Of a DNA stretch of 64,000 bases, positions 32,590 to 64,000 are shown one piece after another. The position numbers and the translations under genes were made by a program. The notes under the pieces are model-generated. The model was given only the letters and a program-made list of their open reading frames with translations, made no database searches and was not told the origin of the DNA. This DNA comes from Octopus vulgaris. Lineage: Eukaryota. Location of the stretch: positions 14,632,001 through 14,696,000 of the forward strand of contig OX597828.1 in assembly GCA_951406725.2 (NCBI GenBank), given 5' to 3'. Each line of letters begins with the position of its first letter. The stretch's first letter is position 1.

Positions 32590-32765
32590 ACGTCAAAGGG
32601 GCGTAATATAGATAGGTTCAGTAAGAACTGAACTATAACCTCAATTCCCTTATGATTATCATTGATACAAAACCTATCAATAGTTAACTTTTTAGATGTT
32701 ACCTTAGATCTAGATTAGTTCTTATAAATCCTTCTACAAGCCGGAACAAATACTACAAAAGTCTT
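32590..32765 (+). pseudogene. Degenerate PLE RT fragment
   Basis: Translates to GRNIDRFSK...IIIDT/IVNFLDVTLDL/YKSFYKP, typical of the PLE RT motif 6-7 region. Confidence 0.6.
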
Positions 32766-32782
32766 TCTTGCGTTCAAACGAT

Positions 32783-33112
32783 TCTGCTAATCTGCTGTCG
32801 TCTGCTAATCTGCTGTCGTTTGCTAATCTGCTGTCGTCTGCCAATCTGCTGTCGTCTGCTAATCTGCTGTCGTCTGCCAATCTACTGTTGTCTGCTAATC
32901 TGCTGTCGTCTGCTAATCTGCTGTCGTCTGCTAATCTGCTGACATCTGCTAATCTGCTGTCGTCTGCCAATCTGCTGTCGTCTGCTAATCTGCTGTCGTC
33001 TGCTAATCTGCTGTCGTCTGCTAATCTGCTGTCGTCTGCTAATCTGCTGTCGTCTGCTAATCTGCTGTCGTCTGCTAATCTGCTGTCGTCTGTCAATCTG
33101 CTGTCGTCTGCT
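32783..33112. repeat. 18-bp minisatellite (TCTGCTAATCTGCTGTCG), about 18 units
   Basis: Direct inspection; explains the ADDSRL and SANLLS pseudo-ORFs. Confidence 0.95.
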
Positions 33113-33788
33113 TCCTCTTTATAAACGTTTCTAACATAGGGCATGAAACTTTGGATGAGGGATTAGTCAATTACGTCAATCCCGTTCTTGACTGCTACCT
33201 AATTTAATCAACTCCTGGAAGAATGAAAGACAAAGTTGACCTCGTTGGGACTAGAACTAAGATCAGAAAAGGATGGAACTCTAATAATAATGCAATGGCA
33301 TTTTTTGTCTGATACCAGCACAAGTTCTTTGCCTATGTCTTCCTTCTCCTCATAATAATATAAATAGTTCCATCTATAAACAGAAATACTATTATTTTCT
33401 TTCTACTCTTATCAAATATATTCGTTAATTCTACTTTAACTCTGCCTCTCTCGTCTCCATGTCTTATCTTCCTTGTATTTATGTGCTTGTGTGTAATTTA
33501 TTTATAACTCACCGTACTCTTCAGCTTCTCGCTAATTTTTTCTCTTTTTAAAAAAAAAAATTCATAATAATAATAATAATAATGATGGTGATGATGATGA
33601 TGATGATGATGATGATGGTGATGGTGGTGGTGGTGGTCGTCGTGGTGATGACGATGACGATAATTAAGTACCGAATGCACATATATAAACAGATAGTTGA
33701 CTTCGTTAAGTAAAAACACAGCTTCTAACTAACCCATGTAGTCCTGTCGACAACGAACCGACTGTGCATACTAGAACTGCTGCTGCTG

Positions 33789-37363: not shown

Positions 37364-37621
37364 TGTAGTAAAGCTTGTTTGCAAACATAACATGGTAGTC
37401 CTGGTTTAGGAAGAATGTTGCTGTAATTTAGCCCCAGGAGACGTCGTCTCCAGCTTGCTATACGACACGATCTGTGTCCTTATACTTTCCCTTGTTCGAA
37501 AATATAGAGACGCAGATCCTGTCGTATAGCTAGCTGGATACGATGTCTCCTGGGGCTAAATTACAGCAACATTCGTTCTAAACCAGGACTGCCATGTTAT
37601 GTTGGCAAACAATCTTTACTA
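37364..37621. mobile_element. Palindromic MITE
   Basis: About 110-bp terminal inverted repeats TAGTAAAG.TTGTTTGC.AACATAACATGG... with a short spacer. Confidence 0.8.
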
Positions 37622-37719
37622 CATCCTAAAGCCATGAAGTCGTTTGATGCTCATTCTTGTTTTTGATGGTATAACGGGAAGAGAGCGTAGGGTTGGAGAT
37701 ATGTTGTTGGAGAGTAGAT

Positions 37720-37973
37720 GGTCTTGAGAACGAATATAGATGGGCTGGCCACATTTCCCGACGGAAGGTCAACAGATGGACAATCAGGGTGACGGAATAC
37801 ACACCAAAACAACGAACAAGATCAAGAGGCCGACCAAAGACAAGATGGCGAGATGATCTCACTCGCTACATGGGGCCTACATTGCTACAACTGACCAGAG
37901 ATAGACAGCGGTGGAAGGAGTTCAAGATGGGATTCCGCCTTCAGGAATGATGAAACCCTGGAAATGAAGTGAA
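37720..37973 (+). pseudogene. RTE-clade LINE 3' fragment
   Basis: YRWAGHISRRKVNRWTIRVTEYTP...RSRGRPKTRWRDDL...RDRQRWK. Confidence 0.85.
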
Positions 37974-38519
37974 GAACCGCAAAGAGAGAGAATCGTTAGA
38001 TCGTGTACGAAATGCCTTGCGGTATTTGTTATGGCTCTTTCAGCTCGGAGTTAAAATCCCGGCGCAGGTTATTTGAGGTGGTTGACCTAACCCGCCGCTC
38101 GATTTAACACCACCAACTTGCCCTTCGGTTCCTCTAGCAGTGTTACAAATATTCCAGCTTGAGGATAGCTTCTTCCCTTGCTCACAAAAAAGTCTCGGAG
38201 GCTCGGAAGACCTTTAAAACGACATCGATACTGCTTACTTCTAACCAAAAGGATAATGAATATAATCTTTCAAAGTTTGGCTTCAGGGAGAGGGGTTAAT
38301 TCGATTATATCGACACCAGTTTTCAATTGCTACTTATTTTATCGGCCTTGTAAGGGGAAAGGCATAGTCGACTTAGCGGAATTTGAACTCAGAGCATAAA
38401 GACAGATGAAATACCGCTAAGCATTTTACCTGGAATACTAATGATTCAGCCAGTTCGCCACCTTAATGAGTGGATAGTATGTCTTCTGGGTAGTTCATAC
38501 TCTCCACTCCAATTAGGAA

Positions 38520-39330
38520 GAGGAGAGAGGACGAAACCCATAAACTGACCACAGTCTGTCTACTCTATATCAAAAGCCTCTCGGAAAAGGTACAAAAAAT
38601 ATGCGGTCCAAATGGCATCAGGGATGTATTCAGGAGTAATACAATACATCTCAAATATCTCCTCCAGGTAAAAACCACCCATAGAAGATAATAAGACCAA
38701 AAACTGCGTGTACTCCATCCCATGCAGTTGCGGTAGGGTGTCTCCCCCTTAAAATAAGAGTAAAGGAACATCATAAAGCTGTGATACGAGGGGATATTGA
38801 AAAATCGGGTACAGCCGATCATGTATGGAGAAACGGAGACCATCTTCCCCTGTGGGATGAAGTTAAAATAATAGACAGAGAACGCCACTGGAAAATACGA
38901 AAATTAAAAGAGGCAGCATATATGCTAGGTCACAATAACCTCCTAAGTAGATCTAGTGCAGATATGAATGTAATATGGGAATTAAGAAAAGATAAAATAT
39001 TAGGTTTATAAGCTCAAAAATTAACTCTATAATTGCCCACGGTCTTATAGTGTAGTGGATAAGAGCGTGGGCTACAGACCCTCGGGTTCTGAATTCAATC
39101 TCAAGCAGGAACTTGAGAAATAAAATCAACAAAAAATAACATCAGCAAAAAAGAATACCTTAGGAATGAGAACAGAGTACCCCATTGGTCAAATAAAGGG
39201 TTGGGTTCGAAATTCCACCAGAACACCTGATGAAGGCTGGAAAGTACATCAGCCGAAACATTGTGGCAGCAACAAACAATGTGAGGGCACCTATCCGTCC
39301 ATTGAAAATTATATATTATTTCTAATATTT
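38520..39330 (+). mobile_element. Decayed Penelope/Poseidon-type PLE 3' portion (linker, GIY-YIG, 3' terminal repeat)
   Basis: YIKSLSEKVQKIC...NCVYSIPCSC...IRGDIEKSGTADHVW...WDEVKIIDRERHWKIRKLKEA, followed by a tRNA-like segment and a hammerhead. Confidence 0.85.
39224..39265 (+). ncRNA. Minimal hammerhead ribozyme (one stem III substitution)
   Basis: CAC-CTGATGA-A-GGCTG(gaaagtacat)CAGCC-GAAAC-ATT-GTG. Confidence 0.75.
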
Positions 39331-41026: not shown

Positions 41027-41410
41027 TAGGGTTAGGTTTAGGGTTAGGGTTAGGGGTTAGGGGTTAGGGTTAGGGTTAGGGTTAGGGTTATAGTTAGGGT
41101 TAGGGTTTAGGGTTAGGGTATAGGGTTTAGGGTTAGGGTTAGGGTTAGAGGGTTAGGGTTAGGGTTAGGGTTAGGGTTAGGGATTAGGGTTGAATGTTTA
41201 GGGTTAGGGTTAGGGGTTAGGGTTAGGGTTAGTGTTAGGGTTAGGGGTAAGGGTTAGGTTTAGGGTTTGGGTTAGTGTTAGGGTTTAGGGTTTGGGTTAG
41301 TGTTAGGGTTTAGGGTTTTTGTTAGGGATAGGGTTCGGGTTAGAGGTTAGGGTTAGTGTTAGGGTTGTTAGGGTTAGGGTTAGGTTTAGGGTTAGGATTA
41401 GGGCTAGGGT

Positions 41411-41447
<37 letters not shown>

Positions 41448-41627
41448 GTTAGGGTTAGGTTTGTGTTAGGGTTGTTGTGTTAGGGTTAGGGTTAGATTTA
41501 GGGGTTAGGGTTTTTGTTAGAGTTAGTGGTTAGGGTTAGGTTTAGGGTTTGGGTTAGTGTTAGGGTTTAGGGTTTTTGTTATGGTTAGGGTTCGGGTTAG
41601 AGGTTATGGTTAGTGTTAGGGTTAGGT

Positions 41628-41662
<35 letters not shown>

Positions 41663-41993
41663 GGTTAGGGTATAGGGTTTAGGGTTAGGGTTAGGGTTAG
41701 GGTTAGAGGGTTAGGTTAGGGTTAGGGTTAGGGTTAGGTTAGGGTTAGGGTTAGGGTTAGGGATTTAGGGTTGAAGGGTCTAGGGTTTAGGGTTAGGGTT
41801 AGGGTTAGGGGTTAGGGTTAGGTTTAGTGTTAGGTTTGTATTAGGGTTAGGTTTAGGGTTAGGGTTAGGGTTAGGGGTTAGGGTTAGGGTTAGTGTTAGG
41901 GTTAGGTTTAGGGTTTGGGTTAGTGTTAGGGTTTAGGGTTTTTGTTAGGGTTAGGGTTCGGGTTAGAGGTTATGGTTAGTGTTAGGGTTAGGG

Positions 41994-42031
<38 letters not shown>

Positions 42032-42354
42032 ATAGGGTTTAGGGTTAGGGTTAGGGTTAGGGTTAGAGGGTTAGGTTAGGGTTAGAGGGTTAGGGTTAGG
42101 GTAAGGGTTAGAGTTAGAGTTAGGGATTAGGGTTGAATGTCTAGGGTTTAGGGTTAGGGTTAGGGTTAGGGGTTAGGGTTAGGTTTAGTGTTAGGTTTGT
42201 ATTAGGGTTAGGTTTAGGGTTAGGGTTAGGGTTAGGGGTTAGGGTTAGGGTTAGTGTTAGGGTTAGGTTTAGGGTTTGGGTTAGTGTTAGGGTTTAGGGT
42301 TTTTGTTAGGGTTAGGGTTCGAGTTAGAGGTTAGGGTTAGTGTTAGGGTTAGGG

Positions 42355-42395
<41 letters not shown>

Positions 42396-42594
42396 GGTTA
42401 GGGTTAGGGTTAGGTTTTAGAGTTAGGGTTAGGGTTAGGGTTAGGGGTTAGGGTTAGGTTTAGTGTTAGGGTTGTGTTAGGGTTAGGGGTTAGGGTTAGG
42501 TTTAGGGTTTAGGTTAGTGTTAGGGTTTAGGGTTTTTGTTAGGTTTAGGGTTCGAGTTAGAGGTTAGGGTTAGTGTTAGGGTTAGGGTTAGGGT
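41027..42594 (+). repeat. Interstitial telomeric array (TTAGGG)n with variant units
   Basis: About 1.57 kb of TTAGGG interspersed with TTAGTG, TTTAGGG, TTCGGG and TTAGAGG; unique DNA on both sides. Confidence 0.97.
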
Positions 42595-54651: not shown

Positions 54652-54795
54652 GTATACATTATTTACATTCGACGGATCTCTGTTCTCATCAACGTTTTGG
54701 CTGATATACCCTCCAGCCTTCATCAGGTGTCTTGGAGAAATTTCGAACCTGGGTTCTCTTTCCTAAGGTATTTTTCGATGTTGTTGTTGTTGTTG

Positions 54796-54836
<41 letters not shown>

Positions 54837-54918
54837 TAGATCACTGCCAGGAATCGAACTCGGAATCTTGGGGTTAGTAGCCCGCGCTCTTAACCACTAC
54901 GCCATATGCCCACAGGCA
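54652..54918 (-). mobile_element. tRNA-headed SINE-like or solo PLE terminal unit with hammerhead; inverted tail at 54919-54984
   Basis: A box TGGCGTAGTGG, B box GAGTTCGATTCC, (AAT)n(AAC)n spacer, then CAC-CTGATGA-A-GGCTG...CAGCC-aAAAC-GTT (54729-54688). Collinear with 39041-39310. Confidence 0.8.
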
Positions 54919-55042
54919 TGATGAGGACAAATGTAAATAATGTAAATAATGTACATAAGTCCTCATCTCTTGAATATAGAACTGAACTCCAGGTATGTTC
55001 CGGGCTTATTAGGCTTCCTCAGTGAAGCAATGCTTTACTCAT

Positions 55043-61682: not shown

Positions 61683-62396
61683 TATTTCCCGAAGGGGGCA
61701 CATTGTGACGACGTAAAAGAAAAGCAACCAATATTTATGTCACTGCAGTAGACGTATCATTTCTGACAAGGTTACAGTGTCCTTTGTGTTATTTATTTTC
61801 AATATTATGGCAATGTTCACGACTTGGTGAAACAGTTGAGACTGCTCACTTGCAATGTTTTTTCTTCATATTCTGGCAAAAAAACCCACATTGTTTTGAC
61901 ATTTTAAACCTCCAATGCAACGAAGAAAAATTATATAATTTTTTTACCAGAAATATGACACAAACGATGCTAAAAAAACTAATCTTTGGCAATATGACAG
62001 TATGCTAATAATAACTGAACAGAATGTTTTTATTCATGTTTTACAAGATGTACCTAATTCGTTTTGAAGACAGGAAACTCATGATATCCTGAGGCATCAA
62101 CCCATGATATCCTGAAGCATCTTATAACAATAATAGGAGTTAGTGCACTCATCCATTCTCACACAGCATTTGCTAACATTGAACATTTTTATGCAGGTTT
62201 TCTAAGATGTACTTAAACCATTTCTTTGTGTAAGAAAGAGAATTGTTCATATATTTTTTCAAACTCTTTTACTCTTTTACTTGTTTCAGTCATTTGACTG
62301 CGGCCATGCAGTCAAATCGACCCCAGGACTTATTCTTTGGAAGCCTAGTACTTATTCTAGTACTTATCACAGGCATACAAACACACACACATATAC

Positions 62397-63548
62397 TACG
62401 CCAACTCTGTAATGGGATACTTAGAAGAACAACTCTACCAAGAGGTGGAGGTAAACTATGGCACTGGATTTAGAAAGTATATTGAAAGGGCATGGAAGAG
62501 ATACCTAGACGACTGTTTCATAATCTGGACAGAATCTCTAAATACTCTGGAAGAGTTCAATATCCTCCTGAACAACCTACACCCATCTCTCAAATTTACA
62601 AAGGAGATGAGTAGTACCAAATTACCATTCCTGGATATAATGGTAATTAAAAAAGACACCACCATCACCACAGATATATACTATAAACACACAGACACAC
62701 ATCAATACCTAAATTTTAAGTCGTGCCATCCACCACATACAAAACGTAACATCCCATACTGCCTAGCCAGAAGAATTTGTACTATTGTAGAAGATGCAAA
62801 TATCAGGAACAAACGCCTAATAGAACTAAGAGAATTTTTGCTCAAACAAAAATACCCATCTCTACTTATAGAAAATGGCATACAGCGGGCTATAAAAATA
62901 CCTATACAACAACTTAGGACAACCCAAGGAAGAGGAAAACAAGAACAAGTCATACCATTCATAGTGACACACAACCCATGTCACCAGAATATCTTCAACA
63001 TTGCCAAAGCAAACCTACCAATCATTGCCCAAAGTAATGAATTAAAAGACATAATCAAGGATCGAGCTATGGTGCTTAGTAAAAGACAGCCTAAAAACTT
63101 GAAAACATTACTAACAAAGGCAAAATTTGACCTCAGCAACAAAGACCAAACATTCACGGTATCTAAATGCAATGATAGCCGATGTGGCACATGCCAATTC
63201 ATACATACCGGTCAATATATAAACACAAAAACCGGGAAAATATTCACAAACGCGAATATGAACTGCAAAAGCAGAAATTTAATTTACTGCATCAAATGCC
63301 CAAATTGTGAAGAAATATATGTAGGTCAGACGGGAAACGCACTATTAGAACGCTCACGTGTACACCGGCAACAGATTAGAGACCCAGAGGTCCGTCAGAT
63401 ACCTTTGAGTAACCACCTAGCAACATGTGGTCGGAAAATATATATAATATTTCCATTCTACAAATTACACAGCCCAAGTGAAATCGAGAGGAAAATCAGA
63501 GAAAAGAATTTTATTGATAAATTCGAACCCAAGCTAAATAAGCAATAA
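62397..63548 (+). CDS. 5'-truncated Penelope-like retroelement ORF (RT C-terminal half, Zn-finger linker, GIY-YIG endonuclease), Neptune-like
   Basis: YANSVMGYLEE, WKRYLDDCF, LPFLD, YYKHTDTHQYLNFKSCHP, KCNDSRCGTC, NLIYCIKCPNCEEIYVGQT...R...H, REKNFI...LN. No stops or frameshifts over ~383 codons. The ATG at 62412 is internal. Confidence 0.93.
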   Translation, partial: YANSVMGYLEEQLYQEVEVNYGTGFRKYIERAWKRYLDDCFIIWTESLNTLEEFNILLNNLHPSLKFTKEMSSTKLPFLDIMVIKKDTTITTDIYYKHTDTHQYLNFKSCHPPHTKRNIPYCLARRICTIVEDANIRNKRLIELREFLLKQKYPSLLIENGIQRAIKIPIQQLRTTQGRGKQEQVIPFIVTHNPCHQNIFNIAKANLPIIAQSNELKDIIKDRAMVLSKRQPKNLKTLLTKAKFDLSNKDQTFTVSKCNDSRCGTCQFIHTGQYINTKTGKIFTNANMNCKSRNLIYCIKCPNCEEIYVGQTGNALLERSRVHRQQIRDPEVRQIPLSNHLATCGRKIYIIFPFYKLHSPSEIERKIREKNFIDKFEPKLNKQ

Positions 63549-64000
63549 TAATAATACTTAGAGGTATTACTTCCACTGCTACGACCATGACCACTAACAA
63601 CAACAACAATACTAAAGGTGATCAAGACGAAGATAGCAGGAAAATTATCTTATTTAGGGTTAAAAGTTCTATTGCCACCACCATCACCACTAGCAACAAT
63701 AATTAAGGTGCTGACAATGATGATGATGACAATTGAAATATAAAAATATAAAAATCTCTGACAAAGGATATTTACAACATTTCTAAAAATAACCCAACAA
63801 TTGCTGCTTCGGCCAGGGTCAAGATACAGGACTCTTGACCTGTCCAACAAAGCGTGATGCCTAAACCAATCAGCTCAACCAACCAATCAGCTTAAGTAAT
63901 TGAGTGATACTACACACTGATTGGTCAGAATACAGTTTGCAAAACCTAGCACTCTGGAGCCTACCCAGCTGTATTTATAGCACAGAATCACTCATCTTGC

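What the first reader, a model, noticed from the sequence alone, without database searches (positions are those of the whole stretch)
39041..39310. PLE whose 3' terminal repeat contains a tRNA-derived Pol III promoter upstream of the hammerhead
Seen: right after the GIY-YIG remnant come a tRNA-like segment (TAGTGTAGTGG A box, anticodon-like arm GGG-CTACAGA-CCC, degenerate B box), a spacer and a hammerhead. The same tRNA-spacer-hammerhead order recurs as a standalone unit at 54652-54918. Inference: the tRNA module is part of the element, so the terminal repeat could be self-transcribing and self-cleaving. This is an unusual chimera of SINE head and PLE.
Basis: partly seen in the sequence, partly recalled or inferred. 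Interest (0 to 1): 0.8.

Follow-up and report, generated by a model that had tools for sequence, protein, structure and literature searches.

The report
Penelope retrotransposon with tRNA-derived promoter
This is the end of a broken copy of a protein-coding Penelope-type jumping gene whose terminal repeat starts with a piece of an arginine tRNA gene; that piece likely lets RNA polymerase III, normally a maker of short non-coding RNAs, transcribe both short SINE-like copies and the whole 2.8-kb element, a job thought to need polymerase II.

Summary
Confirmed and extended. 39041-39112 is a tRNA-Arg(ACG)-derived head built into the terminal repeat (pLTR) of a Penelope/Poseidon-clade retrotransposon family: 25 of 29 other copies found with the GIY-YIG DNA alone carry it at the same junction. 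The unit at 54655-54911 (minus strand) is a solo pLTR of a sister subfamily.

Three indirect signs point to Pol III transcription. (1) 53 of 70 head copies begin within about 10 nt of the tRNA start, often keeping a 2-8 nt leader. (2) 7 of 9 ORF-linked 5' pLTRs that reach the head also begin there. (3) The sense strand has no TTTT (Pol III terminator) in 2,824 column-majority positions, against 11 in 2,208 nt of a Neptune-type PLE in the same genome.

The ORF overlapping the hammerhead and the 3' tail are already known (Anolis PAc). Self-cleavage is not shown; both window hammerheads carry core mutations. Public RNA reads were uninformative. The short form resembles schistosome Sm-alpha and Helenus/Cassandra. 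My literature searches found no autonomous, protein-coding element with such a promoter; Repbase and Dfam could not be checked.

The parts
38461..38495 (-). Short inverted copy of the element's own sequence at the 5' truncation point (fold-back junction)
   Evidence: Its reverse complement matches the sequence around 38496 in other copies
38496..39011 (+). 3' part of the PLE ORF (end of the RT-EN linker and GIY-YIG endonuclease), 5'-truncated and frameshifted; stop TAA 39009-39011
   Evidence: other copies extend upstream into RT
39012..39040 (+). Short 3' UTR ending in the leader GCCCAC, which with the head's first bases forms a GC-rich palindrome in the family; likely transcription start about 6 nt before the head
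   Evidence: the start site is inferred from the 5' ends of copies
39041..39112 (+). tRNA-Arg(ACG)-derived head; A box 39048-39058, B box 39091-39101 (decayed in this copy, GTTCAATCC in its subfamily)
39113..39165 (+). A-rich spacer (an (AAT)n/(AAC)n tract in the sister subfamily)
39166..39310 (+). Duplicate of the ORF start: ATG at 39166 and a frame that reads through the hammerhead and the tail
   Evidence: Open frame; joined to the RT ORF in 5' pLTRs; the same residues in homolog P0003
39221..39267 (+). Minimal type I hammerhead (no helix III); this copy has G to A at the 16.2 position
   Evidence: architecture as in PMC4209133
39268..39315 (+). PLE tail up to the shorter of the family's two 3' ends
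54655..54911 (-). Solo pLTR (SINE-like copy) of subfamily B: head 54911-54838 (A box 54904-54894, B box 54861-54850), (AAT)n spacer, hammerhead core 54726-54720 with G12 to A, shortened tail
54912..54984 (+). Fold-back junction at the head's 5' palindrome (loop read in cDNA sense) and an inverted copy of the tail, part of the same insertion

Best explanation
[quoted passage not shown] SHOWN: the order ORF-stop, head, spacer, ATG, hammerhead, tail in the family; solo copies of the repeat with the PLE's own 3' ends; 5' ends piled up at the head; no TTTT on the sense strand; two protein-coding subfamilies that both keep the boxes. INFERRED: Pol III would start about 6 nt before the head. From a 5' repeat it would run through the terminator-free ORF and the 3' repeat; from a 3' or solo repeat it would give a 250-350 nt RNA. 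The PLE protein would start reverse transcription inside the tail (as shown for Anolis PAc), copy back to the RNA 5' end, and the cDNA end would often fold back on the GCCC-AC-GGGC palindrome, giving the inverted duplicates. Whether the protein is translated from this uncapped RNA or from rarer Pol II read-through RNA is untested. The hammerhead is probably not needed for copying.
For: Head downstream of GIY-YIG in 25 of 29 copies picked without it. 709 exact matches to a 31-nt head motif. Of the first 70 in genome order, 55 have their 5' boundary between 12 nt before and 9 nt inside the tRNA start by script; I count 53 after removing L147 and L154, which by eye are GIY-linked. The binomial P is below 1e-23 even at an assumed truncation rate of 1 per 100 nt. 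In the window's subfamily, 8 of 18 start at the head by eye. ORF-linked 5' repeats that reach the head: 7 start there (L165, L193, L194, L212, L218, L427, L430) and 2 run on into GIY-YIG (L415, L420) (by eye, pooled from three searches). Leader bases are kept: loop AC in 17 and GT in 8 of 55, which a cut at the tRNA +1 would not leave. TTTT runs: 0 in 2,824 majority columns (shuffle mean 5.1, P=0.006); against synonymous shuffles T4 P=0.049 and T3 P=0.006; 4 in 9,075 nt of decayed natural copies, versus 11 in 2,208 nt of a Neptune-type PLE of the same genome with similar T content and 246 in 95,921 nt of 62 other Poseidon-like loci. Subfamilies A and B differ at 13 third versus 4+4 first and second codon positions and both keep TRGCNNAGTGG and GTTCRANNC. 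3' ends: 33 of 54 at +117 to +129 and 12 of 54 at +143 to +146 from the ATG (146 was the end of the reference). PMC8969392 places the Pol III promoter 10-15 nt from a SINE's 5' end; here it would be 13 nt.
Against: No transcript evidence: reads from two unstranded RNA runs of a related species label showed no start sites, and the depth step at the head (about 2-fold) is no larger than in two contig sets of unrecorded kind. GGGG is also absent (P=0.03 mononucleotide, 0.15 synonymous). Six of 62 control loci also have no TTTT in their matched ORF part; one family (L281, L285; about 2 kb each) does so without any tRNA head, though its 3' UTR has six T runs. The head as a whole diverged between subfamilies at 11 of 72 columns, about as fast as third codon positions, so keeping the invariant box bases is weak evidence of selection. 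The same start-at-head share in solo and ORF-linked copies could also reflect a reverse-transcription stop on long RNAs. Kojima 2024 (PMC10886601) argues Pol III is too weakly processive for autonomous elements. Pol III RNA is uncapped; translation from it is shown only in reporters (PMC8223928). The truncation rate in the binomial test was assumed, not fitted.
Confidence: 0.58

Rival explanations
1. The head is a working Pol III promoter only for the short solo-repeat (SINE-like) RNAs; the full element is made by Pol II from tandem arrays or host read-through, and head-starting long copies arise by occasional Pol III read-through or template jumps.
For: 2 of 9 ORF-linked repeats reaching the head continue into GIY-YIG, and L078 and L431 have GIY-YIG upstream across deletions; chimeras joining ORF sequence to the head exist (L196, L228). 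All described PLE promoters are Pol II type (PMC8557442 passages). It solves the cap problem.
Against: It does not explain the lack of TTTT along 2.8 kb, including all six TTT codons being flanked by non-T, nor that most ORF-linked repeats reaching the head start there.
Confidence: 0.27
2. The tRNA-like segment is not a promoter but an RNA processing or stop signal on Pol II multimeric RNA (RNase P cut at the tRNA-like 5' end, or cDNA fold-back at the palindrome) that defines the unit's 5' end.
For: 5' ends sit at a palindrome and 35 of 55 head-starting copies have an inverted piece within 140 nt; it would explain equal start shares in solo and ORF-linked copies.
Against: Many copies keep 2-8 leader bases upstream of tRNA +1, which RNase P would remove; the heads do not fold as tRNA; nine other palindromes with stems of 5 bp or more lie in the element with no pile-up seen in the scattered truncation points (not tested formally); it predicts no T-run avoidance.
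Confidence: 0.1
3. An independent SINE or tRNA fragment landed once in the 3' UTR of an ancestral copy and has been carried passively.
For: The head diverges between subfamilies at about the neutral rate. A single ancient insertion is the likely origin in any case.
Against: Passive carriage gives no reason for 53 of 70 copies to start at the head or for T-run avoidance; no head with a different shared tail (a donor SINE family) was seen among 70 + 18 sampled heads (the downstream part of 40 of them was scored only by script).
Confidence: 0.05

Closest known systems
Penelope/Poseidon-clade PLEs, e.g. Poseidon of Anolis carolinensis (PAc; Frangieh et al. 2024, PMC11167929, parts 1-2 of 4 read)
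   Same: One RT + GIY-YIG ORF, pLTR with a minimal hammerhead overlapping the ORF start, tail inside the ORF with two 3' ends, 5' truncation and inverted 5' pieces. An Anolis protein (P0091, likely PAc by my reading) is 44% identical to the RT here.
   Different: No tRNA head or Pol III promoter is mentioned in the parts read; PLE promoters described so far are Pol II type.
Schistosome Sm-alpha / Sj-alpha SINE-like elements (passages of PMC6765202 and PMC2770079; the original papers were not read)
   Same: tRNA-related Pol III promoter followed by a type I hammerhead in a short non-coding repeat.
   Different: Non-autonomous, tandem, with an active canonical hammerhead; no autonomous partner carrying the same promoter is named in the passages seen. 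Here the short unit is the terminal repeat of the autonomous element, mostly single or inverted, with a minimal hammerhead.
TRIMp3: Cassandra, Helenus, Ajax (Kojima 2024, PMC10886601, passages)
   Same: A small-RNA-derived Pol III promoter inside the terminal repeat, from which the element is transcribed (shown for Cassandra).
   Different: These are non-coding LTR elements of 311-1263 bp, and the paper states their autonomous partners must use Pol II. This family is a non-LTR PLE coding a protein of about 830 aa.
Non-LTR retrozymes (PMC7229834 passages; bioRxiv 10.64898/2026.07.22.740005, parts 1-2 of 5 and a term search)
   Same: Short hammerhead units derived from PLE pLTRs and moved by PLE proteins.
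   Different: Tandem arrays and circular RNAs; 'tRNA', 'Pol III' and 'promoter' occur 0 times in the preprint's main text.
Octopus tRNA-derived SINEs OK, OR1, OR2 (Ohshima and Okada 1994; seen only as a citation)
   Same: tRNA-derived repeats in a genome whose repeats look octopus-like to me (recalled, from no call); I recall OR1 and OR2 as tRNA-Arg related.
   Different: OR2 is a CORE SINE (PMC4758252 passage). I could not compare sequences, so the solo unit may already carry one of these names.

Membership tests
Penelope-like element, Penelope/Poseidon clade | Single ORF with RT and C-terminal GIY-YIG | tested here: met
   RVT_1 E=2.8e-10 on a natural copy; GIY-YIG-type motif C-terminal; Pfam did not score the GIY-YIG part. 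The majority frame is open over codons 0-130 and 105-826 with one 1-nt offset, probably an alignment artefact.
Penelope-like element, Penelope/Poseidon clade | No Neptune/Nematis zinc-finger linker; RT groups with Poseidon-type proteins | tested here: met
   The CX2-5CxxC motif is in the Neptune-like control but not in P0001, P0003 or P0091; our RT groups with P0001, P0002 and P0008 at 100/98, far from the Neptune-like row. No named reference set was available beyond the Anolis protein.
Penelope-like element, Penelope/Poseidon clade | pLTRs, inverted 5' pieces, optional tail | tested here: met
Penelope-like element, Penelope/Poseidon clade | Minimal type I hammerhead in the pLTR | tested here: met
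   Core, stem II and stem I present in both subfamily majorities and in the fold of L126; Rfam does not score it
Penelope-like element, Penelope/Poseidon clade | Hammerhead self-cleavage | not testable with these tools
   6 of 44 copies keep an intact core; no pile-up of 5' ends at the cut site by eye among 40 junction copies
tRNA-derived SINE (SINE2), for the solo unit | tRNA-derived head with A and B boxes 10-15 nt from the 5' end | tested here: met
   decayed in unit 1
tRNA-derived SINE (SINE2), for the solo unit | 3' end shared with an autonomous partner | tested here: met
   The whole unit is shared with the PLE, not a LINE
tRNA-derived SINE (SINE2), for the solo unit | Transcribed by Pol III | not testable with these tools
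   Only indirect signs; the RNA runs were unstranded and showed no starts
tRNA-derived SINE (SINE2), for the solo unit | Target site duplication | tested here: inconclusive
   AACTCC flanks unit 2 on both sides with a 3-nt offset; not surveyed in other copies
Non-LTR retrozyme | Head-to-tail tandem arrays of hammerhead units | tested here: not met
   Sampled copies are mostly single or inverted pairs
TRIMp3 (Helenus) | Non-coding LTR element with PBS and PPT | tested here: not met
   The internal region is an RT + GIY-YIG ORF of PLE type; PBS and PPT were not searched for

The most novel reading that the evidence does not exclude
A natural autonomous retrotransposon transcribed by RNA polymerase III: a tRNA-derived promoter in its terminal repeat drives a 2.8-kb, terminator-free RNA that is both the template and the uncapped mRNA for RT-endonuclease, while the same repeat alone spreads as a SINE. 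One element is its own LINE-like master and its own SINE, which offers a route by which tRNA-plus-hammerhead repeats such as Sm-alpha could arise. L265, an intact tandem PLE from another organism with an A/B-box pair before its hammerhead, may be a second case.
Probability: 0.42. Interest if true: 0.9.

Novelty: new variant of a known kind. Interest (0 to 1): 0.76.

Why it matters
Autonomous retrotransposons are held to use Pol II (or Pol I co-transcription), with Pol III left to short non-coding SINEs; Kojima 2024 states this as a limit set by Pol III processivity. A protein-coding PLE with a tRNA promoter and an ORF without TTTT would break that rule and give a natural case of a long Pol III mRNA. 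It also links PLEs to tRNA-hammerhead SINEs by showing an autonomous partner that shares the whole unit. A defined RNA 5' end with a fold-back palindrome makes the unexplained inverted 5' structures of PLE insertions testable. Even under the main rival, this is a SINE family that is a solo PLE terminal repeat.

Tried and rejected
ARAGORN and Rfam do not detect the head or the hammerhead; the Rfam microRNA hits are simple repeats. The apparent fixed 5' end at 38496 is only the window copy's own truncation point. The first head sample (0 of 30 GIY-linked) was biased because its query held the fold-back junction; it was replaced by a motif sample. The first column-majority attempt kept deletions of its reference and was redone by multiple alignment. 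The relaxed A/B-box pattern missed my own positive controls; the pattern finds them (except decayed unit 1) and hits 1 of 45 control loci (L265; 0.027 expected, but the pattern was widened after seeing L265, and Rfam gives L265 no tRNA hit). Sequencing runs: no RNA holder listed; the lay of two RNA runs and two contig sets showed no starts. No PDB sequence match for P0003. No earlier scan notes. No head copy was found in 37 control loci of about 139 kb, so the family is not among the densest repeats; several thousand copies is my estimate from 709 exact matches. Literature searches that found no tRNA-headed PLE: (open-licence PubMed Central and bioRxiv only). Repbase, Dfam, the 1994 octopus SINE paper and the supplements of PMC13282606, PMC4209133 and PMC8557442 were not seen and may bear on novelty.

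Full report
Observation. The window is G000:C15:14632001-14696000 of a 2.8-Gb genome; its repeats look octopus-like to me (recalled, from no call). After the end of a GIY-YIG frame (38685-39011; 66% identical over 82 aa to P0001) come a 29-nt UTR, a tRNA-like segment from 39041, an A-rich spacer, an ATG at 39166 and a minimal hammerhead (core 39227-39233). The second unit lies on the minus strand at 54911-54655 with an inverted tail piece at 54919-54984. ARAGORN and Rfam do not call these modules. A pattern search found host tRNA-Arg(ACG) genes; unit 2 matches one at 53 of 73 bases and unit 1 at 44 of 73. No other tRNA type was compared.

The head belongs to the element. A search with GIY-YIG plus head plus hammerhead gave 22 other places spanning nearly the whole query at 75-83% identity among 40 scored candidates. 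With GIY-YIG DNA alone, 25 of 29 other copies carry the head at the same junction; three of the rest keep its first bases and one breaks off earlier. Walking upstream gave the RT (RVT_1 E=2.8e-10) and 5' repeats joined to the ORF. The RT groups with Poseidon-type proteins, away from a Neptune-type PLE of the same genome, and is 44% identical to an Anolis protein. The frame runs from the ATG in the repeat through the hammerhead: a natural copy has a 309-codon open frame there, and homolog P0003 has the same residues. This overlap and the internal tail are known from PAc (PMC11167929, parts 1-2 of 4). There are two subfamilies, A (the finding) and B (unit 2), differing by a 27-nt in-frame indel and by 13 third-position against 4+4 other changes. 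Both were therefore protein-coding lineages, and both keep A and B boxes.

5' ends pile up at the head. A 31-nt motif starting at tRNA position 10 has 709 exact matches. I took the first 70 in genome order. The script placed 55 boundaries between 12 nt before and 9 nt inside the tRNA start, 4 at 13-30 nt and 11 further upstream; two of the 55 are GIY-linked by eye, leaving 53. With an assumed truncation rate as high as 1 per 100 nt the binomial P is about 1e-23. In subfamily A, 8 of 18 start at the head, 2 about 20 nt upstream and 8 are GIY-linked, by eye. Of the 55, 35 have an inverted piece nearby, 17 keep the leader loop AC and 8 show it as GT, the cDNA sense. I read this as fold-back of the cDNA 3' end on an RNA that began about 6 nt before the head, 13 nt before the A box, where SINE promoters sit (PMC8969392 passage). 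Their 3' ends fall at the PLE's two tail positions (33 and 12 of 54 measurable). ORF-linked 5' repeats are mostly truncated before the head. Of nine that reach it, seven start there and two run on into GIY-YIG (by eye). Three more have fold-back head pieces with deletions (L214, L416, L443) and two have GIY-YIG upstream across deletions (L078, L431); these five were left out of the count.

No Pol III terminators. A column-majority yardstick from 110 of 114 distinct fragments covers 2,824 positions and has no run of four T on the sense strand. Mononucleotide shuffles give 5.1 (P=0.006); synonymous shuffles of 720 codons give P=0.049 for T4 and P=0.006 for T3. Twelve natural stretches have 4 in 9,075 nt. 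A young Neptune-type family has 11 T4 and 4 T5 in 2,208 nt, equal to its shuffles, and no A/B pair in L262. Among 79 related loci from metagenomes, the 62 of at least 1 kb have 246 in 95,921 nt. Against this reading: GGGG is absent too (P=0.03 and 0.15), six of the 62 have no T4, and one headless family (L281, L285) has none in about 2 kb of ORF, though six in its UTR. TTTT as a Pol III terminator and translation of Pol III reporter RNAs are described in PMC8223928 (passages).

What is not shown. No run on record as RNA holds the stretch. Two unstranded RNA runs of a related species label gave 11,574 and 8,637 laid reads with no start sites; the depth step at the head mirrors copy structure. 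The hammerhead lacks helix III, 6 of 44 copies keep an intact core, both window copies are mutated, minimal PLE hammerheads cleave poorly in vitro (PMC4209133, parts 1-2 of 4), and PAc does not need cleavage for insertion in vitro. The head diverged between subfamilies at 11 of 72 columns, so box conservation alone is weak.

Mechanism. Most likely (0.58), Pol III starts at the head and, meeting no terminator, can make both the short repeat RNA and the full RNA; the PLE protein primes in the tail and copies to the 5' end. The main rival (0.27) limits Pol III to the short copies and leaves the full element to Pol II. A processing or stop signal (0.10) and passive carriage (0.05) fit less well.

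Comparison. It is a Poseidon-clade PLE by every feature tested. The solo unit works like a tRNA SINE and resembles Sm-alpha (PMC6765202, PMC2770079; passages), non-LTR retrozymes (PMC7229834 passages; bioRxiv 10.64898/2026.07.22.740005, parts 1-2 of 5) and TRIMp3 elements (PMC10886601 passages), all non-coding. Nine literature searches showed no PLE with a tRNA head; passages of PMC13282606, PMC8557442 and PMC4758252 showed none either. Repbase, Dfam, subscription papers and supplements were not seen, so the consensus may exist under some name. One of 45 control loci, L265, an intact tandem PLE, has an A/B pair before its hammerhead. It has two T4 runs per unit, no Rfam tRNA hit and is not close on the tree, so it is a lead only.

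Verdict. Real, family-wide and apparently undescribed architecture; Pol III transcription of the full element is well motivated but indirect. New variant of a known kind, interest 0.76.

Noticed in passing
window 62396-63549 (+): 5'-truncated Neptune-type PLE with an unbroken frame from the RT C-terminus through a CX2C-type linker to GIY-YIG; used as a T-run control.
   Followed up: partly
L235-L264, e.g. L262 (G000:C11:74917041-74920961): Young Neptune-type PLE family, copies 95-97% identical, one with a 736-codon open frame and a hammerhead-like motif after the stop.
   Followed up: partly
L265 2741-3030 (JGI1357J11328_10009043): Intact tandem Poseidon-like PLE with an A-box/B-box pair, an A-rich spacer and a hammerhead overlapping the ORF start; possible second tRNA-headed PLE.
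   Followed up: partly
L281, L284, L285: Poseidon-like family with no TTTT in the matched ORF part but a T-rich 3' UTR and no tRNA head.
   Followed up: partly
window 41038-42593: Interstitial block of degenerate TTAGGG telomere-like repeats, 159 exact hexamers.
   Followed up: no
G000:C2:211.887-211.907 Mb: Cluster of about 23 tRNA-Arg(ACG)-like motif matches, many spaced about 206 bp apart.
   Followed up: no
window 37675-37950 (+): Fragment whose translation looks like the C-terminus of an RTE-type LINE ORF (recalled resemblance; no Pfam hit).
   Followed up: no
window 37365-37620: Long inverted repeat, MITE-like.
   Followed up: no
window 38286-38465 (-): Abundant unrelated short repeat directly abutting the element's inverted 5' piece.
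   Followed up: no
window 32711-33178: Tandem array of an 18-bp unit, open in frames on both strands.
   Followed up: no
L196 and L228: Chimeric copies in which ORF sequence is joined directly to the start of the tRNA head, suggesting template jumps from the short RNA's 5' end.
   Followed up: no
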